Shown: in pieces, positions 24,401 to 50,200 of the stretch | Layout of the letters: each line of letters begins with the position of its first letter | Position numbering within the stretch: position 1 is the stretch's first letter | Assembly: GCA_000004985.1 (NCBI GenBank) | Contig: GG738856.1 | Direction: 5' to 3' (one strand) | Source of the DNA: Naegleria gruberi | Taxonomy: Eukaryota | DNA: 64,000 bases | The notes under the pieces: model-generated | Databases searched by the model: none | What the model was told of the DNA's origin: nothing | What the model saw: the letters and a program-made list of their open reading frames with translations, nothing else | Program-made: the position numbers and the translations under genes

Positions 24401-25533
24401 GATCAGTTTCTGTTATAGTGACATCAGTTTTCTACATTCTGGCCATTTTCAATTATCTCATTCTCCATTTGAGATATATCCTATTCAGATACACATACGA
24501 AATTATGTTTTCTATTGCAGTCAAGAATGAACAGCAAAAGATTGGTAAATGGATCAAAATTGTAAATAGCAAAGTGGCAGTTTTTGTGGTCAACTTGATT
24601 GGAGCTGTTGTCATTGTGATTTACTTTGTAATTTTCACTGCTTTGGTTAATACTGGATATATTCAAAAAGAATACTCAAAGATAATGTCAGCATCTTTCT
24701 TTGTGGTGGTTTCTTTAATTTATTTAATACTTTTAATGCTTGCCATATTTGATTTCTATATGGAAAATAGACATGTCAGTAAGGAGGAGAAATCGACAAG
24801 TGACAAGAAGAAGATTAGCTTATTTTTGGATATCTACAAGTTTATATTTGTGAATGATGTGTTGGTATTCAGAAAGGAGTTGATTTTTTCATTCATTTCG
24901 TATTTATTCTTTGTTTTGAACTTTGCTTTGGGTTTCTCCTCATTGGATAATCCGACTGTGACTTCATTTGCTGAGGCATCCTATGCATTTGGTGTTGTAT
25001 ACGAGTTCTTTAACATTCTGGCGTTTGGAGGTTTCGTATTCCTTGTGAATTTTTGCTCAATTAATTGGAAACGTAGAAACTATTCTAATCAAGATGATGA
25101 GAATGAAAATAGAGAACTAGATATTGTACTTTCCAATCCACAACTTTTGAAAATATTTGAAGAATATTGCATGAGAGAATTTTCTTTGGAAAATATTTTG
25201 ATTTTCAAGAAACTTGAATCTTTACAAAAAAGTGAACTTTCACCAATTGACAACGAGTCACTTTTTGAAGAAATGAAAAAGGATTACTTTATTAATGGAG
25301 CAGAATTTGAAGTCAACCTTTCCTCCTCCATGAAAAAGCAATTTATTCAACTTTGTTCCGATCTGAAACATGTAGAAAGGACTCAAGTGGATGAAATATT
25401 GGAACGTTTGAGGGATGACATTTATATGAACTTGAGTGATACATTTTCTAGATTTATTTTCACCAACGAATATGCATCTATTAATGAGTGTATAGAATTG
25501 AAAGAAAAAACAGGCCAGTCCTTTACAAAATAA
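21458..25533 (+). CDS. Large multidomain receptor: signal peptide, NHL repeats, Cys-rich EGF-like module, S/T/N-rich stalk, GAIN/GPS motif, 7 TM helices, C-terminal RGS domain. At least 3 exons with introns at about 21707..21766 and about 22149..22249.
   Basis: NHL repeats (IYITDSNNYRIRKV, IYVTDKSNQRIRKI, IIFSEFGNNRIRKL). EGF-like Cys cluster CSSRGICGSPDNCICSGDYFGLECGSQC. GPS motif VVTCSCNHTTKFSSFVM immediately before 7 hydrophobic helices. RGS motif FEEYCMREFSLENILIFKKLE...DYFINGAEFEVNL. Confidence 0.7.
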
Positions 25534-26526: not shown

Positions 26527-26939
26527 TACAAAATATTAATACTAATTATATCATCGAATTTAGAACATAGTTTTTCGAAAAAGAAAGTCACCAAGCTCTT
26601 AGAAATGCTTAAAGATGACAATAATTTGATATGCTATCAAATGTGGAGACTTATTNGAAAAGAGTGTTGGTGCTAACCCAGAAAAGTTGAAAGGTTTGGT
26701 TTTTTCTCTGAGAGAATACAAATTGGACTGATTTCTCCTCTTTACTCTACCACAGGATTTCATATTCTAACAAACGATGAATAAACAACTGATTTTTAAG
26801 CTTTTTGATGGGCATTTTACAATTAATCTTATAGGCAAATCATAAAATCACAGCATTTATCTCACTTTATTAAGCAAAAATTCCAAAATTTCAAAATTGT
26901 GAATTTTCTTCTAGTTGTAAAAAATTGAGTCGTCTTTGC

Positions 26940-27356
26940 TTATTTACGCTTGTAAACATCAACTCTCTTATTGTGTTTTCTATTCTTTCTATTCTTTCTG
27001 TGTTTTCTACCATGTTTTCTATTCTTTCTATGCTTCTTTCCATAAGTGTCGATTCTTCTCTTCTTATTGAATCTTCTCTTCTTTCCATAGACGTCAATCT
27101 TCTTTCTGATAATTCTCTTCTTACCATGTCTCTTCAAACCTCTTCTCTTTCTTCCGTAGGTATCCAAATATTTGTGAACTTTCTTATTGTTTCTTCTCTT
27201 CTTGTGGGAAACCTTCTTGAGTCTTCTTTGTTTGTTGTTCTTCTTGGCAATGTACAAGGACATGGTTTGTTCCTCTGCATTAACGTCAGAAGTCATGGAA
27301 AGAGCAAGAACTGCCAAAGTTAAGGCAATCAATAGAATTGAAATGAATCTTTTCAT
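26940..27356 (-). CDS. Secreted polybasic (K/R-rich) peptide precursor, copy 1. Signal peptide, then a short acidic pro-region, then (D-x-YGKKRR)-type repeats with many dibasic sites.
   Basis: MKRFISILLIALTLAVLALSMTSDVNA signal peptide. Then AEEQ... followed by KKRRNNKKVHKYLDTYGRKRRGLKRHGKKRIIRKKIDVYGKKRRFNKKRRIDTYGKKHRKNRKHGRKHRKNRK. TATAAATAC motif about 90 bp upstream (27441-27452, minus strand). Confidence 0.55.
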   Translation of the reverse strand: MKRFISILLIALTLAVLALSMTSDVNAEEQTMSLYIAKKNNKQRRLKKVSHKKRRNNKKVHKYLDTYGRKRRGLKRHGKKRIIRKKIDVYGKKRRFNKKRRIDTYGKKHRKNRKHGRKHRKNRKNRKHNKRVDVYKRK

Positions 27357-27781
27357 TTTGTTTTTTTTTGTTGAGTGAGTTTGAAACAATGTTTAGTTTG
27401 AATTTATTGGTTTCGAATAGTGAATAGTAATTTAGTTCTTGTATTTATAAGGAGAGAAATCAGACGAGTTTGTTTACTTGTTTGGATTCTGTTGGATATT
27501 TAGATAGGTATTTATATGGATTTTGTTCAGAGTTTCGAATAAAAACAGAACATTCGCATAGAACTTCTCAACTCTGGACAATCCACCTTGTAATTTTCAA
27601 GATTGTTTCCAATGACCATTAAGAAGAATCCTCTTAATAACAATTTAAGAAAATAATAAGGCTGTTACCCACAAGTATTCTTTTTGTGGTTTTACAAAAG
27701 TTGTAAAGTTCAAGTTCCAGATTGAGGCTAAAAATATTCCAAAAAAAAAAAGTTCCAACTGCCAAACCGCACATAACAATC

Positions 27782-28726
27782 ATGTCCTCATCATCACTTA
27801 GATTACACTGCTTTAGAAACGGAGACTGGGAAAGAAGAGATGGTTTCATTCTCCTCATTGAAAAATCATTAAATAATTCATTGATGGAAAATTTGAAGAA
27901 TAGAGCAAGTAGGATATTGTTTCCCTTCTTGTTTGAGAATGTAAATAACGAGTCTGAATGTTTATCTGTTGAATACTTGCCGAAAATTAGAATATTTTCA
28001 AAATATGGATCCGAAATTAAGAAAGAGGAAGAATTGAGAGATGATGATGTCTTGTTCCTTTCATGTTTTAATGAGGATTTTATAAATTCTATTGCCAAGA
28101 TGAATTATCAAATCAAACAGCTAAGTGGATTGGAAAGCAATTTGAAGAGACAAACTACTCCTTGTTGTGGGGAAACTCAAACTGGAATGATTACTTCTTG
28201 TTTGGGATTCTCTGTTACAATTAATAGTTTATCAACAAAGAAGGAAGTTACATTGGATAATTTGAATGGTAGTTTGACCATTGATGAGATTAAGAGGATG
28301 TTATTAAATAGTGGCACCAACAAGGAACGATTATTGGGAAAGAGTGATTATCCACTCAAATTCACTGAAGATTTCATTCTAGTTCACAAAGGGAAGGAAC
28401 TTAAAGATAATGATGAAGTTGAGAAGCTCTTCTCTCAAAATCCTAATCCAACCAAACTAACTGTGTTCATGGTGTTGAAGAAACCTGTGTATTATGTAAA
28501 GATTGTCATGGAAGGAGGAAGAATGGTAATTATTGACAATGATTCCATTAATTTCACATCTCATGTTTCTGATTTAAAATATTATATGGAAAAACGTTTG
28601 AGAATGAATCTCAATGCCAGCAATAAGGAATTGATATTAATGTGGAATCAAGAAAAGATGATGGGCTCTGAATGTTTAGGAAATGCCTTCCCTTCAAAGT
28701 CAACTCTAAGCTTGACATTTATTTAA
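27782..28726 (+). CDS. Hypothetical protein, possibly with two ubiquitin-like folds; lies in the part of duplication copy A that has no counterpart in copy B (copy B has an N-gap here)
   Basis: ATG ORF of 315 aa. No confident family assignment. Confidence 0.4.
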   Translation: MSSSSLRLHCFRNGDWERRDGFILLIEKSLNNSLMENLKNRASRILFPFLFENVNNESECLSVEYLPKIRIFSKYGSEIKKEEELRDDDVLFLSCFNEDFINSIAKMNYQIKQLSGLESNLKRQTTPCCGETQTGMITSCLGFSVTINSLSTKKEVTLDNLNGSLTIDEIKRMLLNSGTNKERLLGKSDYPLKFTEDFILVHKGKELKDNDEVEKLFSQNPNPTKLTVFMVLKKPVYYVKIVMEGGRMVIIDNDSINFTSHVSDLKYYMEKRLRMNLNASNKELILMWNQEKMMGSECLGNAFPSKSTLSLTFI

Positions 28727-29632
28727 ACAACATTCTCATATTTACTTTCTAATAATGTGTATCGTACACTCCCTACAAATGCTGTATCAGAAAATCTTCT
28801 ACCTTCCTGTAACTCCTTTCCAGCAAAAATAAATCGAAATTTATCCCATGATTCTCCCAATTTACTTTCCAATAATTGTTTCATTTCCTTAATAAAATAA
28901 TAATAGCCATATTGATATGTGTAAACAGCTGTAGAGTTATCGTGGTTCCAAACTTGTGTGAAAGGAGATGCTTAAAAATAAGTCAAGTCCATCAACAAGA
29001 TCAATTTTGAAATTTCCTTCTCCAGTTCTCTTTTCAATATTCTGGGCTTGATTTGATTAATGTGTATTCTTATAGAATTCAACTTGGTAATTTTACTCAA
29101 ATCTAAATCCTTAATTCTCTTGCACTTTACAACTGAAATACTCTCCAAACATTTCAAATTTTCACAAATTTTCTATTCACTCTGTTTCAAAAAGTACCAT
29201 CCATCGAGATTTAACTTTCTCACATTAGAAAATCAACTTGACAAATCGACCTGATAATTACCAAAGTACAAGCATAATTTAGAGAGAATGATCGTTCTCT
29301 GATTTGATGTGTGACACCAACCTTCTAATAATATTTTTTAAAATAATTGGTTGGATTCAACATCTTGCATTGTAATTTCTTCTGATTTCAATTTTCCACA
29401 TTTTCTGACCCATTCATTTACCTTTTCAATATTCAAAAATCCATAAATAATGGAACAGCAGGTATGAAAGTTCCCCAGTCTAAATGATGGTTAATGATTC
29501 AGCCTATTCAGGTGACATTCCGTTTCCGCAAGCATCCACACATGGGACCAGAAAAACAAGTAATCAAATTATCTCCAAGATAACAAAGTAAAAATTTACG
29601 ATAATTTTCACTCTTGTTGATTCGGCCTTGGT

Positions 29633-30130
29633 TTAATTGTCATTTCTCAATTCATTTGATGCGTATTCCAGTGCCTCACCCTCTTGTTTGACAGCTTCCA
29701 GAACAATTTCATGATCATTTCTCAATTCATTCGATGCATATTGAAGTGTTGAACCATCTTGTTTGACAGCTTCCAAAACAACTTCCCTATCATTCTTCAA
29801 TTCATCAGATGCAAAGGTAAGCAAACAGCCGAGATTTCTAACTACTTCCTTGATGACTTGTTTGTCATTCTTGAATTCATCGGCTACACTCTCGAAATTG
29901 TGAGGGAATTTTTTGAAGTAATCCACTACGAAGGATCTATCGTGCATGAATTCGATTGGAAGAAATCTATCGTCCACTCTATCACGATTATTCATCCATT
30001 TGATCAAATCTTTTTGATAATTGTGGAACTTGTTTTGTAGATTTGAATAACATGTTCCAATTCCGAAATCTATTAACTCAATTATGACAGAACAAGTTTT
30101 GCAGTCATCATTGTGTTGTTGTTGGGACAT
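29633..30130 (-). CDS. DUF4116-repeat protein, short copy (about 2 repeats). Paralog of 35601..36531.
   Basis: N-terminus MSQQQHNDDCKTCSVIIELIDFGIGTCYSNL... is identical in style to copy B, followed by ASDELKNDREVVLEAVKQDGSTLQYASNELRNDHEIVLEAVKQEGEALEYASNELRND repeats. Sequence diverges from copy B 3' of 29633, giving an early stop. Confidence 0.55.
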   Translation of the reverse strand: MSQQQHNDDCKTCSVIIELIDFGIGTCYSNLQNKFHNYQKDLIKWMNNRDRVDDRFLPIEFMHDRSFVVDYFKKFPHNFESVADEFKNDKQVIKEVVRNLGCLLTFASDELKNDREVVLEAVKQDGSTLQYASNELRNDHEIVLEAVKQEGEALEYASNELRNDN

Positions 30131-30455
30131 TTTTTCGGATCTTAATTCCAAGTTTCGGCAGGATTACAAAACGAATGAGACCAATGGCCCAGTTCAATAA
30201 CAGGTTTGACAATTACATCCACCTTTTCTTGAATCCACCAGACAAGGGAATAATAAGTTAAATATTTAAAGTTGGTGCAATTCGAGATGCATTTCTCTAC
30301 ATCAAAAAATCCAACAGATCTGAAACACTACTCTCCAGCAACCATTTGATAATTCTCCAATCACTCAGGACTCATCTAAAGGAAGTTAATACCGATCAGG
30401 TTCCTTTAAATTTTCAAAGTTCAAACTAAACAATTCGAAACTTCACATAAAAAAA

Positions 30456-31253
30456 ATGCCTCATCACAATCCAAATAAATACATTAAATTCAACTCTCTA
30501 GCAGCCTGCATTCAGGACGACTATTATCCCATTGACGAAAGGGATGCCTATGAAGGATATGAGGACATTGATAGATTTCAGGTTTTTAAAAGAATAATTC
30601 CTTTCGCCTTGATTCTCTATTCAGAGGAGGAAAAGAAATTTATATTCCAGACAAATTTGAAAGATGTGTGTCCACAGAATACATCTCCAAAGTATTTACT
30701 TGTTCAACTTCAAGATTATTGCGATTTTAAACTTGCATTGATCAAGTTAGGTCAATTGGGGTTTTTTATGGATCGATCAAAGTTTATTATTTTGAAATAT
30801 GTTTCTGAGAGAAGTGAAATACGTAAGAAATTTTATTCTTACCGCTCTTCTTTGCTATCTATTCAGGAATATTCCAATTCTGGCATTGAGTTATATATTT
30901 CTGATTGTGAGAAAATTTCAAAAGTGAAAATTGACTTGTGTCAAGAAGATATTCTGAAAACAGAGATCAAATATAGCTATTGGAAAGGATCATCCTTAAT
31001 TCCTTAGCCATTTCTCATTTGACCACTCTGTTTCATTTTCATCTCAAATTATTAGAAATGGCCAAAGAGAGAATATTTATTTAGATTTTGATATCTCTCT
31101 GTTTCATTACGAAAATGCTACTCAACATATTGAATTTATGTGTGAACACCATTTTGAAACCAAATATAGTTTACTAGTCAATCAGGAAAACAATGAAATA
31201 TTTATAATGAGCTTTCTTCATAATTTAGAATTTCACAAAATGGAATTTCACCA
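30456..31253 (+). pseudogene. Copy A of a lineage-specific gene (paralog of 36782..38263). It carries a 14-bp deletion near 31000 that frameshifts the ORF, and is then cut by the N-gap at 31254.
   Basis: Copy A ...ccttagccatttc... versus copy B ...ccttatagacattgggcgagccatttc.... The protein is 183 aa here versus 493 aa intact. A few other nonsynonymous differences. Confidence 0.5.
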
Positions 31254-31541
31254 NNNNNNNNNNNNNNNNNNNNNNNNNNNNNNNNNNNNNNNNNNNNNNN
31301 NNNTTTTCTCTGAGAGAATACAAATTGGACTGATTTCTCCTCTTTACTCTACCACAGGATTTCATATTCTAACGAACGATGAATAAACAACTGATTTTTA
31401 AGCTTTTTGATGGGCATTTTACAATTAATCTTATAGGCAAATCATAAAATCACAGCATTTATCTCACTTTATTAAGCAAAAATTCCAAAATTTCAAAATT
31501 GTGAATTTTCTTCTAGTTGTAAAAAATTGAGTCGTCTTTGC

Positions 31542-31958
31542 TTATTTACGCTTGTAAACATCAACTCTCTTATTGTGTTTTCTATTCTTTCTATTCTTTC
31601 TGTGTTTTCTACCATGTTTTCTATTCTTTCTATGCTTCTTTCCATAAGTGTCGATTCTTCTCTTCTTATTGAATCTTCTCTTCTTTCCATAGACGTCAAT
31701 CTTCTTTCTGATAATTCTCTTCTTACCATGTCTCTTCAAACCTCTTCTCTTTCTTCCGTAGGTATCCAAATATTTGTGAACTTTCTTATTGTTTCTTCTC
31801 TTCTTGTGGGAAACCTTCTTGAGTCTTCTTTGTTTGTTGTTCTTCTTGGCAATGTACAAGGACATGGTTTGTTCCTCTGCATTAACGTCAGAAGTCATGG
31901 AAAGAGCAAGAACTGCCAAAGTTAAGGCAATCAATAGAATTGAAATGAATCTTTTCAT
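31542..31958 (-). CDS. Secreted polybasic peptide precursor, copy 2 (identical to 26940..27356)
   Basis: 31493..31965 is base-for-base identical to 26891..27365 (identical track ORFs). The N-gap starts 7 bp upstream of the ATG. Confidence 0.55.
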   Translation of the reverse strand: MKRFISILLIALTLAVLALSMTSDVNAEEQTMSLYIAKKNNKQRRLKKVSHKKRRNNKKVHKYLDTYGRKRRGLKRHGKKRIIRKKIDVYGKKRRFNKKRRIDTYGKKHRKNRKHGRKHRKNRKNRKHNKRVDVYKRK

Positions 31959-31965
31959 TTTGTTT

Positions 31966-34900
31966 NNNNNNNNNNNNNNNNNNNNNNNNNNNNNNNNNNN
32001 NNNNNNNNNNNNNNNNNNNNNNNNNNNNNNNNNNNNNNNNNNNNNNNNNNNNNNNNNNNNNNNNNNNNNNNNNNNNNNNNNNNNNNNNNNNNNNNNNNNN
32101 NNNNNNNNNNNNNNNNNNNNNNNNNNNNNNNNNNNNNNNNNNNNNNNNNNNNNNNNNNNNNNNNNNNNNNNNNNNNNNNNNNNNNNNNNNNNNNNNNNNN
32201 NNNNNNNNNNNNNNNNNNNNNNNNNNNNNNNNNNNNNNNNNNNNNNNNNNNNNNNNNNNNNNNNNNNNNNNNNNNNNNNNNNNNNNNNNNNNNNNNNNNN
32301 NNNNNNNNNNNNNNNNNNNNNNNNNNNNNNNNNNNNNNNNNNNNNNNNNNNNNNNNNNNNNNNNNNNNNNNNNNNNNNNNNNNNNNNNNNNNNNNNNNNN
32401 NNNNNNNNNNNNNNNNNNNNNNNNNNNNNNNNNNNNNNNNNNNNNNNNNNNNNNNNNNNNNNNNNNNNNNNNNNNNNNNNNNNNNNNNNNNNNNNNNNNN
32501 NNNNNNNNNNNNNNNNNNNNNNNNNNNNNNNNNNNNNNNNNNNNNNNNNNNNNNNNNNNNNNNNNNNNNNNNNNNNNNNNNNNNNNNNNNNNNNNNNNNN
32601 NNNNNNNNNNNNNNNNNNNNNNNNNNNNNNNNNNNNNNNNNNNNNNNNNNNNNNNNNNNNNNNNNNNNNNNNNNNNNNNNNNNNNNNNNNNNNNNNNNNN
32701 NNNNNNNNNNNNNNNNNNNNNNNNNNNNNNNNNNNNNNNNNNNNNNNNNNNNNNNNNNNNNNNNNNNNNNNNNNNNNNNNNNNNNNNNNNNNNNNNNNNN
32801 NNNNNNNNNNNNNNNNNNNNNNNNNNNNNNNNNNNNNNNNNNNNNNNNNNNNNNNNNNNNNNNNNNNNNNNNNNNNNNNNNNNNNNNNNNNNNNNNNNNN
32901 NNNNNNNNNNNNNNNNNNNNNNNNNNNNNNNNNNNNNNNNNNNNNNNNNNNNNNNNNNNNNNNNNNNNNNNNNNNNNNNNNNNNNNNNNNNNNNNNNNNN
33001 NNNNNNNNNNNNNNNNNNNNNNNNNNNNNNNNNNNNNNNNNNNNNNNNNNNNNNNNNNNNNNNNNNNNNNNNNNNNNNNNNNNNNNNNNNNNNNNNNNNN
33101 NNNNNNNNNNNNNNNNNNNNNNNNNNNNNNNNNNNNNNNNNNNNNNNNNNNNNNNNNNNNNNNNNNNNNNNNNNNNNNNNNNNNNNNNNNNNNNNNNNNN
33201 NNNNNNNNNNNNNNNNNNNNNNNNNNNNNNNNNNNNNNNNNNNNNNNNNNNNNNNNNNNNNNNNNNNNNNNNNNNNNNNNNNNNNNNNNNNNNNNNNNNN
33301 NNNNNNNNNNNNNNNNNNNNNNNNNNNNNNNNNNNNNNNNNNNNNNNNNNNNNNNNNNNNNNNNNNNNNNNNNNNNNNNNNNNNNNNNNNNNNNNNNNNN
33401 NNNNNNNNNNNNNNNNNNNNNNNNNNNNNNNNNNNNNNNNNNNNNNNNNNNNNNNNNNNNNNNNNNNNNNNNNNNNNNNNNNNNNNNNNNNNNNNNNNNN
33501 NNNNNNNNNNNNNNNNNNNNNNNNNNNNNNNNNNNNNNNNNNNNNNNNNNNNNNNNNNNNNNNNNNNNNNNNNNNNNNNNNNNNNNNNNNNNNNNNNNNN
33601 NNNNNNNNNNNNNNNNNNNNNNNNNNNNNNNNNNNNNNNNNNNNNNNNNNNNNNNNNNNNNNNNNNNNNNNNNNNNNNNNNNNNNNNNNNNNNNNNNNNN
33701 NNNNNNNNNNNNNNNNNNNNNNNNNNNNNNNNNNNNNNNNNNNNNNNNNNNNNNNNNNNNNNNNNNNNNNNNNNNNNNNNNNNNNNNNNNNNNNNNNNNN
33801 NNNNNNNNNNNNNNNNNNNNNNNNNNNNNNNNNNNNNNNNNNNNNNNNNNNNNNNNNNNNNNNNNNNNNNNNNNNNNNNNNNNNNNNNNNNNNNNNNNNN
33901 NNNNNNNNNNNNNNNNNNNNNNNNNNNNNNNNNNNNNNNNNNNNNNNNNNNNNNNNNNNNNNNNNNNNNNNNNNNNNNNNNNNNNNNNNNNNNNNNNNNN
34001 NNNNNNNNNNNNNNNNNNNNNNNNNNNNNNNNNNNNNNNNNNNNNNNNNNNNNNNNNNNNNNNNNNNNNNNNNNNNNNNNNNNNNNNNNNNNNNNNNNNN
34101 NNNNNNNNNNNNNNNNNNNNNNNNNNNNNNNNNNNNNNNNNNNNNNNNNNNNNNNNNNNNNNNNNNNNNNNNNNNNNNNNNNNNNNNNNNNNNNNNNNNN
34201 NNNNNNNNNNNNNNNNNNNNNNNNNNNNNNNNNNNNNNNNNNNNNNNNNNNNNNNNNNNNNNNNNNNNNNNNNNNNNNNNNNNNNNNNNNNNNNNNNNNN
34301 NNNNNNNNNNNNNNNNNNNNNNNNNNNNNNNNNNNNNNNNNNNNNNNNNNNNNNNNNNNNNNNNNNNNNNNNNNNNNNNNNNNNNNNNNNNNNNNNNNNN
34401 NNNNNNNNNNNNNNNNNNNNNNNNNNNNNNNNNNNNNNNNNNNNNNNNNNNNNNNNNNNNNNNNNNNNNNNNNNNNNNNNNNNNNNNNNNNNNNNNNNNN
34501 NNNNNNNNNNNNNNNNNNNNNNNNNNNNNNNNNNNNNNNNNNNNNNNNNNNNNNNNNNNNNNNNNNNNNNNNNNNNNNNNNNNNNNNNNNNNNNNNNNNN
34601 NNNNNNNNNNNNNNNNNNNNNNNNNNNNNNNNNNNNNNNNNNNNNNNNNNNNNNNNNNNNNNNNNNNNNNNNNNNNNNNNNNNNNNNNNNNNNNNNNNNN
34701 NNNNNNNNNNNNNNNNNNNNNNNNNNNNNNNNNNNNNNNNNNNNNNNNNNNNNNNNNNNNNNNNNNNNNNNNNNNNNNNNNNNNNNNNNNNNNNNNNNNN
34801 NNNNNNNNNNNNNNNNNNNNNNNNNNNNNNNNNNNNNNNNNNNNNNNNNNNNNNNNNNNNNNNNNNNNNNNNNNNNNNNNNNNNNNNNNNNNNNNNNNNN

Positions 34901-35600
34901 NNNNNNNNNNNNNNNNNNNNNNNNNNNNNNNNNNNNNNNNNNNNNNNNNNNNNNNNNNNNNNNNNNNNNNNNNNNNNNNNNNNNNNNNNNNNNNNNNNNN
35001 NNNNNNNNNNNNNNNNNNNNNNNNNNNNNNNNNNNNNNNNNNNNNNNNNNNNNNNNNNNNNNNNNNNNNNNNNNNNNNNNNNNNNNNNNNNNNNNNNNNN
35101 NNNNNNNNNNNNNNNNNNNNNNNNNNNNNNNNNNNNNNNNNNNNNNNNNNNNNNNNNNNNNNNNNNNNNNNNNNNNNNNNNNNNNNNNNNNNNNNNNNNN
35201 NNNNNNNNNNNNNNNNNNNNNNNNNNNNNNNNNNNNNNNNNNNNNNNNNNNNNNNNNNNNNNNNNNNNNNNNNNNNNNNNNNNNNNNNNNNNNNNNNNNN
35301 NNNNNNNNNNNNNNNNNNNNNNNNNNNNNNNNNNNNNNNNNNNNNNNNNNNNNNNNNNNNNNNNNNNNNNNNNNNNNNNNNNNNNNNNNNNNNNNNNNNN
35401 NNNNNNNNNNNNNNNNNNNNNNNNNNNNNNNNNNNNNNNNNNNNNNNNNNNNNNNNNNNNNNNNNNNNNNNNNNNNNNNNNNNNNNNNNNNNNNNNNNNN
35501 NNNNNNNNNNNNNNNNNNNNNNNNNNNNNNNNNNNNNNNNNNNNNNNNNNNNNNNNNNNNNNNNNNNNNNNNNNNNNNNNNNNNNNNNNNNNNNNNNNNN
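31966..35600. other. Assembly gap (run of N). Shorter gaps at 31254..31303 and 63783..63832, and single n at 26656 and 63890.
   Basis: Literal n characters. Confidence 1.
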
Positions 35601-36230
35601 ATTCATTTGATGCATATACAAGTGCTCTACCATCTTCTCTAACCACTTCCAGCACAACTTGTTTATCATTCTTCCATTCATCAGATGCATGTTCATGTGC
35701 TCTACCATCTTGTTTAACTGCTTCCAGTACTATTTCCATATCATTCTTCAATTCATCTGATGCGTATTCAAGTGCTCGACCATTTTTTTTAACTGCTTCC
35801 AGAACAATTTCATGGTCATTTCTCAATTCATCAGATGCATATCGAAGTGCTGAACCATCTTGTCTAACTACTTCCAGAACAATTTGTTTGTCATTCTTCC
35901 ATTCATCAGATGCATAACCAACTGCCCAACTATCTTGTTTACTAGCCTCCAATACAAATTCCATATCACTCTTCAATTCGTCGGATGCATATCGAAGTGC
36001 ACTACCATTTTTTTTTACAGCCGTTAAAACAATTTGTTTGTCATTTCTCAATTCATTTGATGCGTATTCAAGTGCCTCACCCTCTTGTTTGACAGCTTCC
36101 AGAACAATTTCATGATCATTTCTCAATTCATTTGATGCATATTCAAGTGTTGAACCATCTTGTTTGACAGCTTCCAAAACAACTTCCCTATCATTCTTCA
36201 ATTCATCAGATGCAAAGGTAAGCAAACAGC
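35601..36230. repeat. Tandem 75-bp coding repeat (DUF4116 half-repeats), 8 or more units, truncated by the gap
   Basis: Recurrent ...tcatcagatgcata...cttccag(a/t)aca... units with period 75 nt. Confidence 0.7.
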
Positions 36231-36531
36231 CGAGATTTCTAACTACTTCCTTGATGACTTGTTTGTCATTCTTGAATGCATCGGCTACACTCTCGAAATT
36301 GTGAGAGAATTTTTTGAAGTAATCCATCACGAAGGATCTATCGTGCATGAATTCGATTGGAAGAAATCGATCATCCACCCTATCACGATTATCCATCCAT
36401 TTGATCAAATCTGTTTGATAATTGTGGAACTTGTTTAGTAGATTTGAATAACATGTTCCAATTCCGAAATCTATTAACTCAATAATGACAGAACAAGTTT
36501 TGCAGTCATCATTGTGTTGTTGTTGGGACAT
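35601..36531 (-). CDS. DUF4116-repeat protein, long copy. N-terminus complete; the 3' part (8 or more 25-aa half-repeats) runs into the N-gap, so it is partial.
   Basis: Tandem 75-bp units encoding YASDELKND(x)EIVLEAVKQDGRALE. ATG at 36531. Confidence 0.6.
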
Positions 36532-36781
36532 TTTTTCGGATCTTAATTCCAAGTTTCGGCAGGATTACAAAACGAATGAGACCAACGGTCCAGTTCATTA
36601 ACAGGTTTGACTTGTTTGACCATTACATCCACCTTTTCTTGAATCCACCAGACAAGGGAATAAGTTAAATACAAATATTTAAAGTTGGTGCAATTCGAGA
36701 TCTAAAGGAAGTTAATACCGATCAGGTTCCTTTAAATTTTCAAAGTTCAAACTAAACAATTCGAAACTTCACATAAAAAAA

Positions 36782-38263
36782 ATGCCTCATCACAATCCAA
36801 ATAAATACATTAAATTCAACTCTCTAGCAGCCTGCATTCAGGACGACTATTATCCCATTGACGAAAGGGATGCCTATGAAGGATATGAGGACATTGATAG
36901 ATTTCAGGTTTTTAAAAGAATAATTCCTTTCGCCTTGATTCTCTATTCAGAGGAGGAAAAGAAATTTATATTCCAGACAAATTTGAAAGATGTGTGTCCA
37001 CAGAATACATCTCCAAAGTATTTACTTGTTCAACTTCAAGATTATTGCGATTTTAAACTTGCATTGATCAAGTTAGGTCAATTGGGGTTTTTTATGGATC
37101 GATCAAAGTTTATTATTTTGAAATATGTTTCTGAGAGAAGTGGAATATGTAAGAAATTTTATTCTTACCGCTCTTCTTTGCTATCTATTCAGGAATATTC
37201 CAATTCTGGTATTGAGTTATATATTTCTGATTGTGAGAAAATTTCAAAATTGAAAATTGACTTGTGTCAAGAAGATATTCTGAAAACAGAGATCAAATAC
37301 AGCTATTGTATAGGATCATCCTTAATTCCTTATAGACATTGGGCGAGCCATTTCTCATTTGACCACTCTGTTTCATTTTCATCTCAAATTATTAGAAATG
37401 GCCAAAGAGAGAATATTTATTTAGACTTTGATATCTCTCTGTTTCATTACGAAAATGCTACTCAACATATTGAATTTATGTGTGAACACCATTTTGAAAC
37501 CAAATATAGTTTACTAGTCAATCAGGAAAACAATGAAATATTTATAATGAGCTTTCTTCATAATTTCGAATTTCACAAAATGGAATTTTCACCAGATGAT
37601 AATTCATATCAAATGAATCCAGTTCATTTTGAAAGCAATGAGGATTGTAACTTTCGAGATATGTATGCAACCTCGTGTGCCATAACCAATAGCAAGTATT
37701 TGGTTATTATTCATGTGAATAGATGTAACATGAAGAGTGAAACATATCAGGAATTCTTCACTTCTGATGAGGTGAGGTGGATGCTTGTGGATTTGAACTC
37801 ATACAGTGTGAAAAGAGTTTATCCAATTGTTTATAATATTGAAAAGTTAAAGATGCTACAAATTTCCTCTGATGGTTTCCAAAGAGTTGAAAAAAGACCA
37901 CGGACAACCCAACTTTATTTGCAAGATGGTGATTTGAATGGTGGACGTACCGATTCTTCCTTAATTAATCGTACCTCTATTTCTCAAATCCGAATCAATG
38001 ATGGATTTGAACCAGAATTTTCACACCTATTTGCATTCAGACCATTTCAACATAATCCTGAACTATTTCAAGTCCACCTATCAGTTTCCTTAAATACACT
38101 TCATTCCTCATATAGCGACACTAAGATTAATAAGAAAAAGTATGGACACTTCTTTAGATTTTATTTCAAGTTTTCTAATGAAGCCACTTGCATCTTGGAA
38201 AGGTTATTGAAATTTGTAAGAGAAGGTCACTTTTCAGATGTCTCAATATCAATCAAGGAGTGA
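36782..38263 (+). CDS. Lineage-specific hypothetical protein (493 aa), intact copy of the 30456..31253 pseudogene. Divergently arranged with the DUF4116 gene.
   Basis: Continuous ATG ORF. 5' region about 98-99% identical to copy A. No recognisable domain. Confidence 0.5.
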   Translation: MPHHNPNKYIKFNSLAACIQDDYYPIDERDAYEGYEDIDRFQVFKRIIPFALILYSEEEKKFIFQTNLKDVCPQNTSPKYLLVQLQDYCDFKLALIKLGQLGFFMDRSKFIILKYVSERSGICKKFYSYRSSLLSIQEYSNSGIELYISDCEKISKLKIDLCQEDILKTEIKYSYCIGSSLIPYRHWASHFSFDHSVSFSSQIIRNGQRENIYLDFDISLFHYENATQHIEFMCEHHFETKYSLLVNQENNEIFIMSFLHNFEFHKMEFSPDDNSYQMNPVHFESNEDCNFRDMYATSCAITNSKYLVIIHVNRCNMKSETYQEFFTSDEVRWMLVDLNSYSVKRVYPIVYNIEKLKMLQISSDGFQRVEKRPRTTQLYLQDGDLNGGRTDSSLINRTSISQIRINDGFEPEFSHLFAFRPFQHNPELFQVHLSVSLNTLHSSYSDTKINKKKYGHFFRFYFKFSNEATCILERLLKFVREGHFSDVSISIKE

Positions 38264-39768: not shown

Positions 39769-40801
39769 TTACTTGGAAATTAGTTCTGAATCGGCTTCTC
39801 TGTTCAATGCTCTCGAAATTTCTATTTGAGAGAGTGAAAAAATATCGGTATCTAGGTGAGGTCGAATGGTTGTCTCTGATTGAGATTTGAAAATGTAAAT
39901 ATTCGTATTATTAAAAACAAAATTGAGAAGGTATTTCTCATGCTCGTCATGTGTTTTCTTTTTGTGGAATACCAATTTGGTTGATGAGCTAGCATCATCT
40001 TGATTCGAAAGAATGATTTGCTTTTTCGAATCGACTGAGTAAGCATCCTTAAGAAGTGCAGTCTTGAGTGGTAATTGATTCGAAAGTAAAACAATATTTT
40101 CCAATTGATCCTTATTTTCCATCAATAAATTGTAATACATTGAAAATGCACAATGTGGCATATAAACAAATGTCTTGTCATTCATTCGTCTCTTACATTC
40201 TTCATTAGTCATAATCCACTCAATCGAATACTTTTCCTTTAGGTAGGTATATAACTTGTTTCTATTTTCCTCATCCATTTTAATTTCAAAAATTGGATCA
40301 TACATGAAACATTGAATATGTTTCTTGTTGATTCATCTTCTCCTTAAGCCTTTCCAATAGAGAAAGTAATACTTTAAATTGTGAAAGTGCAATTTTATCC
40401 GTAACAAAATCTCCAATTCCATAACAAATCACCTGATGAGTAATATATTGATAATTATCATTGATGAAACAATTTAATATAAATTCAGATAATTTCTCTC
40501 TGACTTTTTCCAATTGGCTCTCAAATCGTATTGGATTAAACTCTATTAAATCTATCATCATCTTTCCTCCATGCGTACCCAATGAATTATTTGGATTTTG
40601 TTGTTCTTGTTCTGCTTGAGCCAATACTTTTCGTTTCTTTTTCCATGATGAAGCCATCATGAGAGCTTGTTGAGTATTATTTCCTCTCCTCTGATTGTTA
40701 TTATTATTATTGTTCGATACGATAGTAAATCCTCCATCGAGCATAATTGTCTCATGTGTTGTTGTTGGTTGCTCGGAATTTATGTTTGAATGTTGGCTCA
40801 T
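39769..40801 (-). CDS. SRR1-like protein, split into two overlapping frames by an apparent 1-nt frameshift at about 40300
   Basis: SRR1 motifs VICYGIGDF (upstream frame) and YDPIF ... FVYMPHCAFSMYYNLLMEN (downstream frame). The two frames abut at ...SMFHV*/MYDPIF with no room for an intron. Confidence 0.5.
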
Positions 40802-44248: not shown

Positions 44249-47200
44249 ATGGATAAACTGAACAATAACAACAATACAACGGATAGTAATTATGATACTA
44301 TTAATGCCATTACTAAAATTTTACCTTTATATCCTCAATTCAAAACATTCATCAAACAATATTTTAAGGATAGACCATCACTCATAGAATCTATTGTTAA
44401 TAACCATCAAGAAGACAAAATTGATCAAAAACAACTCATAACATTGTTGGAAATTACTTTACGATTATTAATTTTTGCACCATCTGATTTTTGTAAAATG
44501 TGGAATTGGTCACCATTCTTCTCGCTTTTAAAACACAAAAATAAGGATATCAAATCACTAACATCAAAATGTGTTTCAATTATATTGAAATTAGATGACC
44601 AATTTTTCAATTCAAAGATTGATAATTTAAAGACATATGTTTTGGAAGAAATTGAAAGTGAAGAATTAGTCCATTTGGAAAATACTCTTTCTTTCTATGA
44701 TGATACAGAGACTTCAAATATGGAAACAACAACAGAAGAAACAAGAGATAAACTCATCATTTCACACAAATCTGATTCTATGGTAAATGTTTGTGGTGTT
44801 TGGTTACACAAAAATCTTCGTGAAATTAAATCTTCCCAACAAAATATTTCAGCTGATAAGACTAAATTGATTTTCACAAAGACATCACTCGAAAATATGC
44901 GTTCATTGGCATTGGGAGTTGCACAAGAAAATCCTATTATTTTGGAAGGTATTATTGGTTCTGGTAAGACAGCCTACGTAGAAGAATTAGCAAGAATTAC
45001 AGGAAACACAGATCTTATCAAAGTCAATTTGGATGAATCTTTTGATAGTAAGGATTTATTAGGTACATATGTTTGTACTGATGTTCCAGGTGAATTCAGA
45101 TGGCAACCAGGTGCATTGACAAAGGCTGTCATGGAAGGAAGATGGATTCTTATTGAAGATCTTGATTTGGCTCCATTTGATATCATTTCATCGATTATTC
45201 CACTCGTAGAGTCAGGTAATCTTTTCCTTCCATCTAGAGATGAAATTATTCCAGCTTCAACTGGTTTCCAATTGTTTGCAACTCAAAGTCTTGTAGAATC
45301 ACTCAATGGAACAACAACAAGACAACGAGTTCTTCCAATGTCTAACTTGTGGACTAAGGTTAGGGTAAACAAATTACCATCTAAGGAGATTGAACATATT
45401 CTGAAAGTTAAATTCGAATCAATTCAACAATTAATTCCAAAGTTTATTGAAACATATGACGCTTTGAGAAGTGGTCATATTTCGGATGATTCTGAAAAAT
45501 CCGAGAAACAATCATCTGAATCAACACAGTTAAAGAGCTTTGGAAGACTTTTCTCATTCAGAGATTTACTCAAATGGTGCGAGAGAGTTCAACGATTTTA
45601 TGGACAAAAGATTCAAAAGAATCAAAACTATGTTTTAAGTCAAATTAAGAGAGACATTTTCCATGAAGCTATTGATGTATTTTGTGGTATGATTGCCAAA
45701 CATGACATTTATGATTCTGTTGTTGGAACACTTGCTCTTGTGTGGGAAATTTATAATTATGAAGAATATTTAAAGACTTATAAACCACAATTACATGAAG
45801 AAAAGGGAGTGATAACAGTCGGTAGAATTTCCCTAGAAAGAGATGAGAAGAATCTTGGAGAACTTCTTAACAAAAATAGTAACTTTGCTCACACCAAGCA
45901 AAGTTTAAGAATGATGGAAAGAGTTGGTGCCTGTATAAAGATGAACGAACCAATTTTATTGAACGGTGAAACTGGTGTTGGTAAAACTACTGCTGTTCAA
46001 TATTTGGCCAACTTGATGGGTAAAAAACTCCTTGTACATAACTTGAATCAACAAACAGACTCTGCAGATTTTATTGGTGGTTATAAACCAGTTGATTTGA
46101 AAATACTTGCAGCTTCTGTAAAGAGCAATTTTGAACAATTATTTTCAGTTACTTTCCCTTCAAAGGAAAACGAAGTAACATTGAAAAAAGTCAGAGATTT
46201 ATACACAAAGAAGAGCTGGGCTCAATTCATCATGATGTTGAATAAGATAATTGATCTTGCTGATCAAAAACTTTCAAAAGTTGATGAAGTAGTTGATGAA
46301 AAGTTAGAAGAAGTAGATTCAAAGAAGAGAAAGAAGACTCAAGGTTCTTCTTCTGGAACAAAGAAGCAAAAGACTTCTGATAAGACATCAACACTCAAAC
46401 AATATTGGACTAAATTCAAAGAAAGTGTTGACAAATTTAATCAACAACAAATACTTGTACAAAATAGCTTTGCTTTCTCTTTCGTAGAAGGTACCTTGGT
46501 TAAGGCTCTTAAGGAAGGTCATTGGATCTTACTCGACGAAATTAACTTGGCCTCTACAGAAACACTTGAAAGATTGAGCTCTTTATTAGAAGGTGAAGAA
46601 GGAACCTTATTCATTACTGAAAAAGGTGATACTGAACCAATTAAGAGACATCCAAACTTTAGAATTTTTGCTTGTATGAATCCTCCAACTGATATTGGTA
46701 AAAAGAATTTGCCACCTGGTTTGAGAAATAGATTTTCCGAGTTTTATGTTCACGAATTAACTGACAAGGACGACTTGAAGATTGTTGTTTCTAGATATTT
46801 GTCAACTGTACCACATCCACCAGTTGATGATATTGTTAATTTTTATTTGGACGTAAAGAAAAAGTCAGAAGCTGAACTTTCTGATGGTGCTTCCCAAAGA
46901 CCTCATTACAGTTTACGTACCTTGACAAGAAGTTTGGACTATGCCGTTTTTGTTATGAAGGACTATGGTATGGAAAGATCTCTCTATGAAGGTTTCTCTA
47001 TGGGTTTCTTAACCTTATTGAGTTCTGCTTGTTCATCCACAGTTGAAAAGATGATTAGAACTTGTTTCTTCAAACAAAAGAATGTTGATAATTCTCTTAA
47101 GCAAGCTCCAAGTCAACCAGCTAGTGGTGATTTTGTTTTGTTTAAACACTTTTGGTTGCCACAAGGTCAATTCGCACCAGAGCAACCAGCTGATTTTATT

Positions 47201-50200
47201 ATTACTGATACAGTAGAAGAAAACTTGAAGAATCTTGCTAGAGCTATCAAGACTAACAAGTACCCTGTATTACTTCAAGGTCCAACTTCTGCTGGTAAGA
47301 CTAGTATGGTTCAATATCTTGCTAAAATGACTGGTCACAAATTTGTAAGAATTAACAATCACGAAAGTACTGATCTTCAAGAATATTTTGGTTCTTATAT
47401 TACCAACTCTCAAGGAAAACTTGTCTTCCAAGAAGGTATCCTTGTTGAAGCTGTTAGAAATGGATATTGGTTAGTTTTGGACGAATTGAACTTGGCTCCA
47501 TCTGATATTTTAGAAGCTCTTAACAGATTGCTTGACGATAATAGAGAATTGTTCATCCCAGAAACTCAAGAAACTGTCAAACCACATCCACATTTCCAAC
47601 TCTTTGCCACTCAAAACCCTCCAGGTCTTTATGGTGGTAGAAAGGTTTTATCTCGTGCTTTCAGAAACAGATTTTTGGAACTTCACATTGATGAAATTCC
47701 AAGAGGTGAATTAGTGACTATTCTTCACAGAAGATGTCAAATTTCTAACCAACATGCTGAAAAGCTTGTTTCTGTTATGAGAGAACTTCAACAAAGAAGA
47801 CAAAGTAGTAAGATTTTTGCTGGTAAGAGTAATATTACACCAAGAGATTTGTTCAGATGGGCTGAACGTATGAAGGGTGCTGATGAAAAGATTAACTATA
47901 ACCAAAATGCTGCTGAAGAAGGTTTTATGCTTTTGGCAGAAAGACTTCGTAGAGATGAAGAAAAGGATATTGTTAAAGAAATTTTGGAAAAGGTTTTCAA
48001 GACTAAACTTGATCTCGAAAGAATGTACAATCCAAAAGAGCTTGATAACTTACAAGTTGCTGGTAGTACTATTGTTTGGACAAAGACAATGAAGAGAATG
48101 TACGTCCTTGTTGGTAAATGTCTTCAATTCAGTGAGCCTGCATTGCTTGTTGGTGATACTGGTACCGGTAAAACAACTGTTTGTCAAGTTTATGCTGATA
48201 TTTATGAACAACATTTGAGAATTCTCAATTGTCACCAACATACCGAAACAAGCGATATCTTGGGTTCTCTTCGTCCTGTAAGAGGTAGAGAAAAGTTAAA
48301 GATAGAATTAGAAGAATTAATAGAAGAATTTATTACCACAGCTAATACTAAATACTCACTCGATATTAATTTTGGTAACGAAACAAGTATTGGTAAGAAA
48401 GTCAAGAGATTGGAAGATATTTGCAAAAAGCTTGCTAAGGAAAGAAAATTAGCAGAACCTCAAAAGAAAAAGCAAAAGAATGAATTTAAGGAAAAGGAAC
48501 TATTGGAAAAACAATTGATTATAAGAGATATCTATCAAAAATGGAAGGCTCTTTTCACTTGGTATGATGGACCTCTTGTTCAATCAATGAAGAGTGGTGA
48601 AATTTTCCTTATTGACGAAATTTCTTTGGCTGAAGATGCTGTTCTTGAACGTTTGAACAGTGTATTGGAACCTTCAAGAGAATTAACTCTCCCAGAAAGA
48701 GGATCTGAAAAGATCGAAAGTATTGTTGCTCATGATAAGTTTAGAATTTTGGCAACAATGAACCCTGGAGGTGACTTTGGTAAGAGAGAACTTTCTCCTG
48801 CTTTGAGAAATCGTTTCACTGAAATTTATGTTCCAAGTTTGTCTGTTTCTGAAGACTTGGCTATTATTGTTGCAAGCAAATTAGATCAATCAATCAAGAG
48901 TTTTAATACTAGAATGGTTGAATTTGTTCAATTCTTCAAGTCTAAGAGAACTAAGAGATTGTTGAGTGTAAGAGATGTCATTTCATGGGTTCAGTTTATG
49001 AATATGGCTGTTGCTAAACTTGACATGGATGCATATGGTGCCTTTTTACACGGTGTTGACACAGTTATCTTGGAAAGTATTGGTGTAGGTACTGACTCTT
49101 CTGCCAAGAACAGATTATTGCTCAGAAAGGAATGCTTTACTTTCTTACTTGATAAGATTGCTCAAGAAAATGTTTTGAGCACTGAACAACTCGAATATTA
49201 TAGAGATGTTTTCCTCAATGAAAACTACACTGCCATTAGAAGTAACAAGACCAAAGAATCCTCAGAATACTTTGGATATCATCCATTCTATGTTAAATGT
49301 GGTGAAAGTAGTGAAAGAAAGATTGTTTATGCTTTGGATGCTCCAACTACTGGCAGAAATGTCATGAAGGTCCTCAGAGCTATGCAACTCAGAAAGCCAT
49401 TACTTCTCGAAGGTAGTCCTGGTGTAGGAAAAACATCTTTGATTTCTGCTATTGCTAAAGCATCTGGTCACAATATTGTTAGAATTAACTTGAGTGAACA
49501 AACAGATATGATGGACTTGTTAGGTACTGATTTGCCTGTTGAAGGAAGTTCTGGAGGTCAATTCAGATGGTGTGATGGTATCTTCTTGAGAGCTTTACGT
49601 AATGGTGATTGGGTTTTGTTGGATGAATTGAATCTTGCATCTCAATCAGTTCTTGAAGGTTTGAACTCTGTTTTGGATCACCGTGCTGAAATTTATATTC
49701 CTGAAATTAACGAAACTGTTAAATGCCCAGAAGGTTTCCGTATCTTTGCATGCCAAAATCCTTTACAACAAGGTGGTGGTAGAAAGGGTTTACCAAAGTC
49801 ATTCCTCAATCGTTTCACTCAAGTCTATGTTGATGAATTGAGACCAGAAGATTTGACTTTCATCCTTAATTCTATTCATGGTGATATTGGAGAAGAAAAC
49901 ATCAAGTTGATGATTGACTTTAACAGAAAAATGCACAAAGAAACCATGGAGCTCTATCGTTTTGGTAGAAAGGGAAGCCCTTGGGAATTCAACTTGAGAG
50001 ATGTTTTCAGATGGTGTGAATTATTGAAGAAGGAAAGAGAATTGAACAAGGACTGTACCAAACCAATTGATCCAATGAGAATGATCGATTGTATGTACAA
50101 GCAAAGAATGAGAACAGTAGAAGATCGTAAACATGTGGAAAGAGTTTACAAGGAATTGACTGGAAAGGATTTCCCTTGTGAAACTAATCCAACATATACC

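What the first reader, a model, noticed from the sequence alone, without database searches (positions are those of the whole stretch)
35601..36531. DUF4116-repeat gene with copy-number-variable 75-bp coding tandem repeats
The long copy has 8 or more perfect-length 25-aa half-repeats (YASDELKNDxEIVLEAVKQDGxALE) and is still incomplete at the gap. The short copy (29633..30130) has only about 2 and then diverges to a stop. DUF4116 has a patchy distribution (trichomonads, kinetoplastids, some algae and amoeboflagellates) and no known function. Repeat expansion or contraction between paralogs 6 kb apart suggests ongoing unequal recombination.
Basis: partly seen in the sequence, partly recalled or inferred. 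Interest (0 to 1): 0.5.

Follow-up and report, generated by a model that had tools for sequence, protein, structure and literature searches.

The report
Naegleria DUF4116 repeat gene and truncated twin
This is an ordinary helical-repeat (DUF4116) protein gene of the amoeba Naegleria gruberi that is cut off by an assembly gap, next to a shorter, truncated duplicate; the difference in repeat number looks like a truncation inside a duplicated or mis-assembled block, not an actively expanding repeat.

Summary
On the minus strand an ORF starts at ATG 36531 and runs 310 codons into the N-gap at 35600. It has a 57-aa head, 2 degenerate and 8 canonical 25-aa units, all in register. Pfam DUF4116 scores E=4.9e-123. 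The twin (30130..29633, 165 aa) is the annotated N. gruberi protein NAEGRDRAFT_64940, so the window is Naegleria gruberi.

Units within the array are only 65-88% identical in DNA (median dS 0.67), so this is an old protein repeat, not a fresh VNTR. The short copy matches the first 4.3 units of the long one at 96-99%. It then switches to unrelated sequence with a stop, and it lacks the C-terminal tail kept by full-length Naegleria relatives. That pattern is truncation, not in-register contraction.

Both copies sit in a duplicated block of at least 4.6 kb (26702-31253 / 31304-37594). In that block the neighbouring gene is also broken in the short-copy unit, and every homology edge falls on a contig end. 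A real tandem duplication is favoured (dS 0.079, several indels). Mis-scaffolded haplotypes are not excluded.

AlphaFold gives a confident alpha-solenoid with no close solved relative. The likely role is a protein-binding scaffold. Interest is low.

The parts
35601..36531 (-). Long DUF4116 gene, 5' part only (310 codons from ATG 36531). The 3' end is lost in the gap. No matching protein was found in the public collections searched.
   Evidence: Translation. Pfam PF13475 E=4.9e-123. The head-only search finds only the short copy's protein.
36361..36531 (-). N-terminal head (residues 1-57), with the Naegleria family motif VIIELIDF...KF..Q....KW..NR....F
   Evidence: Head alignment A3 with N. gruberi, N. 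lovaniensis and N. fowleri proteins. Exhaustive head search.
36211..36360 (-). Two degenerate 25-aa units (residues 58-107)
   Evidence: Unit table. They are 39-65% identical in DNA to canonical units. Helical in the AF2 model.
35601..36210 (-). Eight canonical 25-aa (75-bp) DUF4116 half-repeats plus a 3-aa stub; consensus SDELKNDKEIVLEAVKQDGSALEYA
   Evidence: TRF period 75 x 8.2. Unit table and consensus. AF2 pLDDT 95-99, three short helices per unit.
31966..35600 (.). Assembly gap (3635 N) that hides the rest of the array, the C-terminal tail and the stop codon of the long copy
   Evidence: N-run listing
29633..30130 (-). Short copy, 165 aa = NAEGRDRAFT_64940 (EFC47071.1). It has the head, 2 degenerate units and 2.3 canonical units, then a stop and no tail. 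Probably a truncated duplicate.
   Evidence: Translation. Identity to P0241 and its NCBI names. 14 nt differences in 492 nt against the long copy, 7 synonymous and 7 non-synonymous.
29560..29636 (-). Sequence just 3' of the short copy's break point. It is unrelated to the repeat or to the long copy. Homology to the long copy starts at 29637.
   Evidence: Self-BLAST. Three-frame translation shows no tail motif downstream.
36532..36781 (.). Divergent intergenic region between the long DUF4116 gene and the 493-aa gene. Its twin, 30131-30455, carries an extra 87 bp (30289-30373).
   Evidence: Pairwise alignment
36782..38263 (+). Neighbour gene, 493-aa ORF, no Pfam match
   Evidence: ORF list. Pfam gives nothing.
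30456..31007 (+). Truncated twin of the 493-aa gene (183 aa). A 14-bp deletion near 31005 shifts the frame.
   Evidence: Alignment
26702..27363 (.). Left end of duplicated unit A. It carries a small gene for a basic protein with a signal peptide.
   Evidence: Self-BLAST: 99.85% to 31304-31965. ORFs.
31304..31965 (.). 662-bp contig between the 50-N gap and the 3635-N gap; a copy of 26702-27363
31254..31303 (.). 50-N placeholder gap at the supposed junction of unit A and unit B

Best explanation
The window is Naegleria gruberi nuclear DNA. The feature is the 5' two-thirds or less of a gene for a DUF4116 alpha-solenoid protein. It belongs to a Naegleria subfamily built as a ~55-aa N-terminal head, then a run of 25-aa three-helix units, then a conserved C-terminal tail (G[FY]..EYS..LY..RM...Y.G.YLG).

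Shown:
- The DUF4116 assignment.
- 10 in-register units.
- The conserved head.
- A confident solenoid model.
- Old, selectively maintained units.

The array is therefore a structural protein repeat. It most likely forms an elongated surface for binding other proteins. This is inferred from the fold and from relatives in which DUF4116 arrays are fused to F-box, kinase, ubiquitin or ankyrin modules.

The long copy is the intact gene, and its 3' end lies in the assembly gap. The 165-aa copy 6.4 kb away is a 3'-truncated duplicate. It is collinear with the first 164 codons, then broken mid-unit, with no tail. It lies in a tandem segmental duplication of about 4.6 kb plus the extra array. In the short-copy unit the adjacent 493-aa gene is also disabled.

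Patchy identity between the units suggests gene conversion after the duplication. The difference in repeat number is thus a truncation or deletion event in a decaying duplicate, not stepwise slippage of a variable coding VNTR.
For: DUF4116 assignment:
- Pfam 401 bits, 7 stretches.

Organism:
- Short copy = XP_002679815.1 N. gruberi; CN hydrolase = NAEGRDRAFT_64943.

Array:
- 10 units in register.
- Unit-to-unit DNA identity 65-88%, against 96-99% between matching units of the two copies.
- Units: median dS 0.67, dN 0.22.

Fold:
- AF2 mean pLDDT 88.3, 95-99 in the array, with helices of 4, 10 and 6 residues per unit.
- Literature: a trRosetta model of PF13475 is an alpha-solenoid (PMC8078820).

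Family architecture:
- Head conserved in N. gruberi, N. lovaniensis and N. fowleri proteins.
- Tail conserved in 7 full-length members.
- No tail in any frame downstream of the short copy.

Duplicated block:
- Block structure.
- 14-bp frameshifting deletion in the neighbour's twin and an 87-bp promoter indel.
- Copy pair dS 0.079, dN 0.018.
- Patchy divergence: 0 differences in 442 bp, P about 1e-3.

Fusion partners in homologues:
- F-box P0050 and P0107, kinase P0081, ubiquitin P0058, ankyrin P0097.
Against: - The 3' end of the long copy is not in the assembly. It is therefore unproven that it carries the tail, or that its 3' flank differs from the short copy's.
- All homology edges fall exactly on contig ends or gaps. 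One duplicated piece is a 662-bp contig at 99.85% identity. This is also what mis-scaffolded haplotypes of a heterozygous diploid would give.
- dN/dS of 0.23 between the copies (only 14 changes) does not look like a long-dead pseudogene.
- Some Naegleria relatives also lack the tail (P0091, 346 aa), so the tail may not be obligatory.
- No expression or interaction data exist. The binding-scaffold function is inference only.
Confidence: 0.6

Rival explanations
1. Assembly artefact. There is one locus, heterozygous in diploid N. gruberi NEG-M. The contig ending at 31253 (short allele) and the contig starting at 35601 (long allele) are two haplotypes of the same region, laid end to end by the scaffolder. 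The stray 662-bp contig sits between them. The difference in repeat number would then be allelic (or partly a contig chimera at 29636/29637), not between paralogs.
For: Every homology block ends exactly at a contig end or gap. Contig 31304-31965 is one Sanger read in length and 99.85% identical to 26702-27363. The 50-N gap is a placeholder size that recurs at 63783-63832. Naegleria is described as a mainly heterozygous diploid (PMC9928731). Identity is patchy, with long identical stretches.
Against: Synonymous divergence of 0.079, indels of 87, 14, 9 and 6 bp, and two disabled genes on one 'haplotype' are a lot for alleles. The scaffold order a-b-c / a-[gap]-c-d and a gap estimate large enough to hold segment b (2273 bp) are internally coherent for a true tandem duplication.
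Confidence: 0.25
2. One reading: two functional paralogs whose 75-bp coding repeats are expanding and contracting through ongoing unequal recombination.
For: The unit number differs (2.3 against at least 8.2). TRF sees a weak 225-bp higher-order period. The best unit pairs are 3-4 units apart at 85-88% identity. There is evidence of sequence exchange between the copies.
Against: Units are 65-88% identical with median dS 0.67, so there is no recent homogenisation or expansion. The short copy is collinear with the first units of the long one and breaks mid-unit into non-repeat sequence rather than at a hybrid unit. The family tail is absent.
Confidence: 0.1
3. The short copy is a genuine, functional short isoform-like paralog: a head plus 4 units acting as a minimal adaptor or a competitor of the long protein.
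For: The ORF is intact from ATG to stop and is annotated. dN/dS against the long copy is 0.23. Other short or tail-less family members exist (P0091 346 aa, P0247 173 aa).
Against: It ends in the middle of a unit, which would leave an uncapped solenoid end. The neighbouring gene in the same unit is frameshifted. P0246 comes from a 1007-bp contig and may be a fragment. The 14 substitutions are too few to establish constraint.
Confidence: 0.05

Closest known systems
Pfam PF13475 (DUF4116) repeat family
   Same: Strong full-length HMM matches (7 stretches, profile positions 1-49). Same 25-aa half-repeat consensus A-S-x-E-L-(K/R)-x-D-x-E-(I/V)-V-L-x-A-V-K-x-x-G-x-A-L-x-Y as hundreds of eukaryotic, metagenomic and some bacterial proteins.
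   Different: Nothing in the repeat itself. The family has no assigned function and no solved structure.
Naegleria head-array-tail DUF4116 proteins (N. lovaniensis C9374_005856, _005879, _009485; N. gruberi NAEGRDRAFT_80892; N. fowleri FDP41_010674)
   Same: Shared N-terminal head (V..L.DF ... KF..QQ.G..KW..NR....F.P.EF..D), followed directly by the array. 33-38% identity over 81-90% of the query for five N. lovaniensis and N. gruberi members (P0001, P0004, P0014, P0037, P0052). Head alignments including N. fowleri P0248.
   Different: Those proteins are 317-540 aa and end with a conserved tail. Here the tail is unobservable in the long copy (gap) and absent in the short copy. No orthologue lies at the syntenic N. 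lovaniensis position.
ARM/HEAT and other alpha-solenoid repeats (e.g. PP2A A subunit, importins); leucine-rich repeat variant (1lrv, 24-residue units)
   Different: The unit is 25 aa with three short helices, against about 40 aa in ARM/HEAT. There is no sequence relationship. The scores are too weak for homology.
Coding minisatellites / copy-number-variable tandem-repeat genes (e.g. fungal adhesins, mucins)
   Same: An in-frame tandem DNA period (75 bp), and two copies that differ in unit count.
   Different: Variable coding minisatellites have near-identical units. Here the units are 65-88% identical and the copies differ by a truncation.

Membership tests
DUF4116 (PF13475) | HMM score above Pfam's gathering threshold | tested here: met
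   401 bits (long) and 180.5 bits (short) against a cut-off of 24.9
DUF4116 (PF13475) | Tandem array of the roughly 49-aa profile (two 25-aa half-repeats) | tested here: met
   7 stretches, the best covering profile positions 1-49. 10 units in 25-aa register.
DUF4116 (PF13475) | Predicted alpha-solenoid fold | tested here: met
   AF2 pLDDT 95-99 over the array, three helices per unit. Agrees with the trRosetta model in PMC8078820. No experimental structure exists to compare.
Naegleria head-array-tail DUF4116 subfamily (defined here) | Conserved N-terminal head motif before the array | tested here: met
   Alignment A3: D21, R49, P58 and E60 invariant; K34, K44, N48 and F61 at least 90% conserved. 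Head-only search hits only Naegleria-like proteins.
Naegleria head-array-tail DUF4116 subfamily (defined here) | Conserved C-terminal tail G[FY]..EYS..LY..RM...Y.G.YLG | tested here: not met
   Short copy: absent from the ORF and from all three frames downstream. Long copy: not testable, because its 3' end lies in the gap 31966-35600.
Copy-number-variable coding tandem repeat (unequal crossing-over) | Near-identical adjacent units (recent homogenisation or expansion) | tested here: not met
   Unit-to-unit DNA identity 65-88%, median dS 0.67
Copy-number-variable coding tandem repeat (unequal crossing-over) | Copies differ only by whole units, with both flanks conserved | tested here: inconclusive
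   The 5' flank and the first 4.3 units are collinear. The short copy breaks mid-unit into unrelated sequence. The 3' flank of the long copy is unavailable.
Tandem segmental duplication (true paralogs) | Both copies present on one DNA molecule | not testable with these tools
   Only the scaffold is available. The junction lies in a 50-N gap. No independent assembly was found.
ARM/HEAT repeat superfamily | Significant sequence or structure match to ARM/HEAT repeats | tested here: not met

The most novel reading that the evidence does not exclude
The Naegleria head-array-tail DUF4116 proteins could be a lineage-specific recognition family, analogous in logic to LRR or ankyrin receptor families. 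In that reading, tandem paralogs exchange sequence by gene conversion and vary their array length to diversify binding surfaces. The gap would then hide a much longer array (nominally about 18 more units), and the short copy would be a donor or decoy cassette rather than junk.
Probability: 0.06. Interest if true: 0.5.

Novelty: new member of a known kind. Interest (0 to 1): 0.2.

Why it matters
Practically, the only protein found for this gene pair in the public collections searched (NAEGRDRAFT_64940, 165 aa) is probably the truncated twin. The fuller gene turned up in none of those searches, most likely because an assembly gap interrupts it. This matters to anyone counting or modelling DUF4116 proteins in Naegleria.

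More generally, DUF4116 is a widespread, confidently foldable alpha-solenoid with no function and no solved structure. The conserved head and tail of the Naegleria subfamily give handles for constructs and pull-downs. None of this changes how we think about repeat dynamics, and the claimed 'ongoing unequal recombination' is not supported.

Tried and rejected
1. Looked for an independent assembly to close the gap.
- Exact-protein look-ups of the short copy, the CN hydrolase ORF and the 493-aa neighbour found nothing.
- A scan of metagenome contigs with head peptides found nothing.
- A head-only search of 5.8 billion proteins returned only the short copy.

2. Looked for an orthologous locus. The N. 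lovaniensis (L001) and Logan (L002) regions around the CN hydrolase have no DUF4116 gene call. tblastn of six window proteins against L001 gave no hits. L002 was not available to the script.

3. Looked for the family tail, or a spliced continuation, downstream of the short copy. There is no tail motif in any frame, and no GT donor appears in the last ~30 nt before the stop on reading the sequence. A weak ubiquitin-like ORF at 28723-28970(-) is below the Pfam cut-off and was not linked to the gene.

5. The bacterial promoter and terminator scan is irrelevant for a eukaryote and was ignored.

6. Tried to read the N. gruberi genome paper (PMID 20211133) for heterozygosity figures. It is not held.

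7. Considered Trichomonas as the source (33% GC, long intron-free ORFs). Rejected after the exact match to N. gruberi.

Full report
**Observation.** The region is read on the minus strand.
- An ATG at 36529-36531 opens a frame that stays open for 310 codons, until the sequence runs into a 3635-N gap (31966-35600).
- Tandem Repeats Finder reports a 75-bp period with 8.2 copies at 35601-36214 (score 580). It also reports a 225-bp period (score 750), and a 2.3-copy array at 29640-29813.
- The protein, cut into 25-aa units, keeps perfect register from residue 58 to 310. It has two degenerate units, eight canonical units (consensus SDELKNDKEIVLEAVKQDGSALEYA) and a 3-aa stub.
- Pfam assigns both copies to DUF4116/PF13475 far above threshold: 401 and 180.5 bits against a cut-off of 24.9.
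- A tblastn with the consensus finds no other DUF4116 locus in the window.

**Source organism.**
- The window is eukaryotic, with about 33% GC and genes for a kinase/NACHT protein, a GPS-RGS receptor, kelch, Nse4 and a 5449-aa midasin.
- The short copy's 165-aa product is identical to EFC47071.1 / XP_002679815.1, 'predicted protein NAEGRDRAFT_64940 [Naegleria gruberi]', on a 602-kb scaffold.
- The nearby carbon-nitrogen hydrolase is NAEGRDRAFT_64943.
- The long copy has no counterpart among the proteins searched. A head-only query against 5.8 billion proteins returns only the short copy, as does the exhaustive representative search.

**Anatomy of the array.**
- Canonical units are 65-88% identical to each other in DNA and 44-84% in protein. 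Matching units of the two copies are 96-99% identical.
- Among units the median dS is 0.67 and the median dN 0.22. The array is old and maintained by purifying selection.
- The best unit pairs lie 3 or 4 units apart (88% and 85%), so the 225-bp higher-order signal is weak.
- The least variable positions are S1, E3, D7, V11, L12, A25 (invariant) and D/N2, L4, K/R5, N6, E13, A14, V15, K16, G19, L22, Y24 (two residues each). The most variable are positions 8-9, 17-18, 20-21 and 23.

**Structure.**
- With a 44-sequence alignment, AlphaFold2 gives mean pLDDT 88.3 and pTM 0.79. The array scores 95-99, and each unit forms helices of about 4, 10 and 6 residues. The head is modelled with low confidence.
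- This agrees with the only paper found in the held library that models the family's fold, a trRosetta alpha-solenoid model (PMC8078820).

**Family context.**
- The 57-aa head is conserved in Naegleria proteins from N. gruberi, N. lovaniensis, N. fowleri and related metagenome contigs.
- Seven full-length members (317-540 aa) end with a conserved tail, G[FY]..EYS..LY..RM...Y.G.YLG.
- This head-array-tail architecture is my own description from these alignments.
- The short copy ends ...NELRNDN* in the middle of a unit. No tail motif is encoded downstream in any frame.
- Homology to the long copy stops at 29637, and the sequence beyond is unrelated.
- The short copy is thus a 3'-truncated version, not an in-register contraction. 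The long copy's own 3' end cannot be seen, so this comparison remains one-sided.

**The two copies are part of a larger duplication.** Self-BLAST shows three matching pairs:
- 26702-27363 = 31304-31965 (99.85%).
- 29637-30288 ~ 36038-36701 (95.3%).
- 30374-31253 ~ 36700-37594 (97.3%).

The layout is unit A (26702-31253), a 50-N gap, then unit B (31304-37594) interrupted by the large gap.
- In unit A the twin of the 493-aa neighbour gene (36782-38263) is cut to 183 aa by a 14-bp deletion.
- The shared divergent promoter carries an 87-bp indel.
- In the DUF4116 coding overlap there are 14 substitutions, 7 synonymous and 7 non-synonymous. This gives dS 0.079, dN 0.018 and dN/dS 0.23.
- Divergence is patchy. 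There are no differences in 442 bp at 30374-30815 and one in 662 bp. Each is improbable (about 1e-3 or less) under a uniform rate. This points to gene conversion or mosaic heterozygosity.

**Real duplication or artefact?**
- Every homology block ends at a contig end. One block is a read-length contig. The 50-N gap is a placeholder. Naegleria is described as a heterozygous diploid (PMC9928731). Mis-scaffolded haplotypes therefore cannot be excluded.
- Against that reading: the synonymous divergence, the several indels, two disabled genes in one unit and the coherent a-b-c / a-[gap]-c-d order all favour a true tandem duplication with a decaying copy.
- If so, the nominal gap must hold the 2273-bp equivalent of 27364-29636. 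That leaves roughly 1.4 kb for further units and the tail. This is an inference that depends on an approximate gap size.
- I give about 0.6 to the duplication-plus-truncation reading and 0.25 to the haplotype artefact.

**Synteny.** Around the CN hydrolase, N. lovaniensis and another Naegleria assembly keep SRR1, histone H2A, B9-C2 and LRR genes; midasin is seen only in the N. lovaniensis locus. They show no DUF4116 gene call within 10 kb. tblastn with six window proteins, including the 493-aa ORF and the DUF4116 protein, finds no homologue in the N. lovaniensis locus. The block is therefore specific to the N. gruberi lineage at this position.

**Mechanism.**
- Shown: a stacked three-helix 25-aa solenoid with conserved core positions and variable surface positions.
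- Inferred: a protein-protein interaction scaffold. Support is indirect. Among homologues the array is fused to F-box, kinase, ubiquitin and ankyrin modules.
- No experiment bears on function.

**Verdict.** This is a correctly spotted but ordinary member of a known uncharacterised repeat family in N. gruberi. The copy-number contrast is best explained by truncation within a duplicated, or possibly mis-assembled, block. The useful by-products are an annotation correction and a description of the Naegleria head/tail architecture.

Noticed in passing
window 44249-60598 (+): A single uninterrupted 5449-aa ORF encoding midasin/MDN1: eight AAA_5 stretches, midasin lid domains and a C-terminal VWA. 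The N. lovaniensis locus has a 5559-aa gene call at the matching position, in a slightly different gene order.
   Followed up: partly
window 26940-27389 (-) and 31542-31965 (-): A small ORF with a signal-peptide-like N-terminus (MKRFISILLIALTLAVLALS...), followed by K/R-rich repeats (…YGKKRR…, …RKNRKH…). It is present twice because it lies in the duplicated segment. No Pfam match.
   Followed up: no
window 28723-28970 (-): A short ORF with a weak ubiquitin-like match (FRFIFAGKELQEGRRFSD; PF00240 E=3.7e-4, below the cut-off). It lies between the short DUF4116 copy and the convergent 27722-28726(+) gene, which itself has a weak ubiquitin-like (DCDC1-type) match. Some DUF4116 homologues are fused to ubiquitin (P0058), but no link was shown here.
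   Followed up: partly
window 39769-40801 (-): An SRR1 domain split across two overlapping ORFs (39769-40305 and 40298-40801). This suggests a short intron or a frameshift. N. lovaniensis has one 368-aa SRR1 gene.
   Followed up: no
window 30289-30373 and ~31005: An 87-bp insertion/deletion in the divergent promoter of unit A relative to unit B. A 14-bp deletion frameshifts the twin of the 493-aa gene.
   Followed up: yes
window 22225-25533 (+) and 173-2920 (-): A 1102-aa ORF combining NHL-like, GPS and C-terminal RGS matches with hydrophobic segments (an adhesion-GPCR-like RGS protein). Also a 915-aa ORF with a kinase domain and a weak NACHT match; the kinase match starts at profile position 55, so an upstream exon is likely.
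   Followed up: no
(database behaviour): The word-indexed protein search with the full 310-aa query did not list the 96%-identical 165-aa N. gruberi protein among its best 120 hits, probably because repeat hits swamped the candidates. A head-only query found it at once.
   Followed up: yes
N. lovaniensis proteins P0001 and P0004 (contig of 639,201 bp): Two head-array-tail DUF4116 paralogs (C9374_005856 and C9374_005879) lie on the same contig and have near-identical tails (82%). This hints that local duplication of this family also occurs in another Naegleria species.
   Followed up: no
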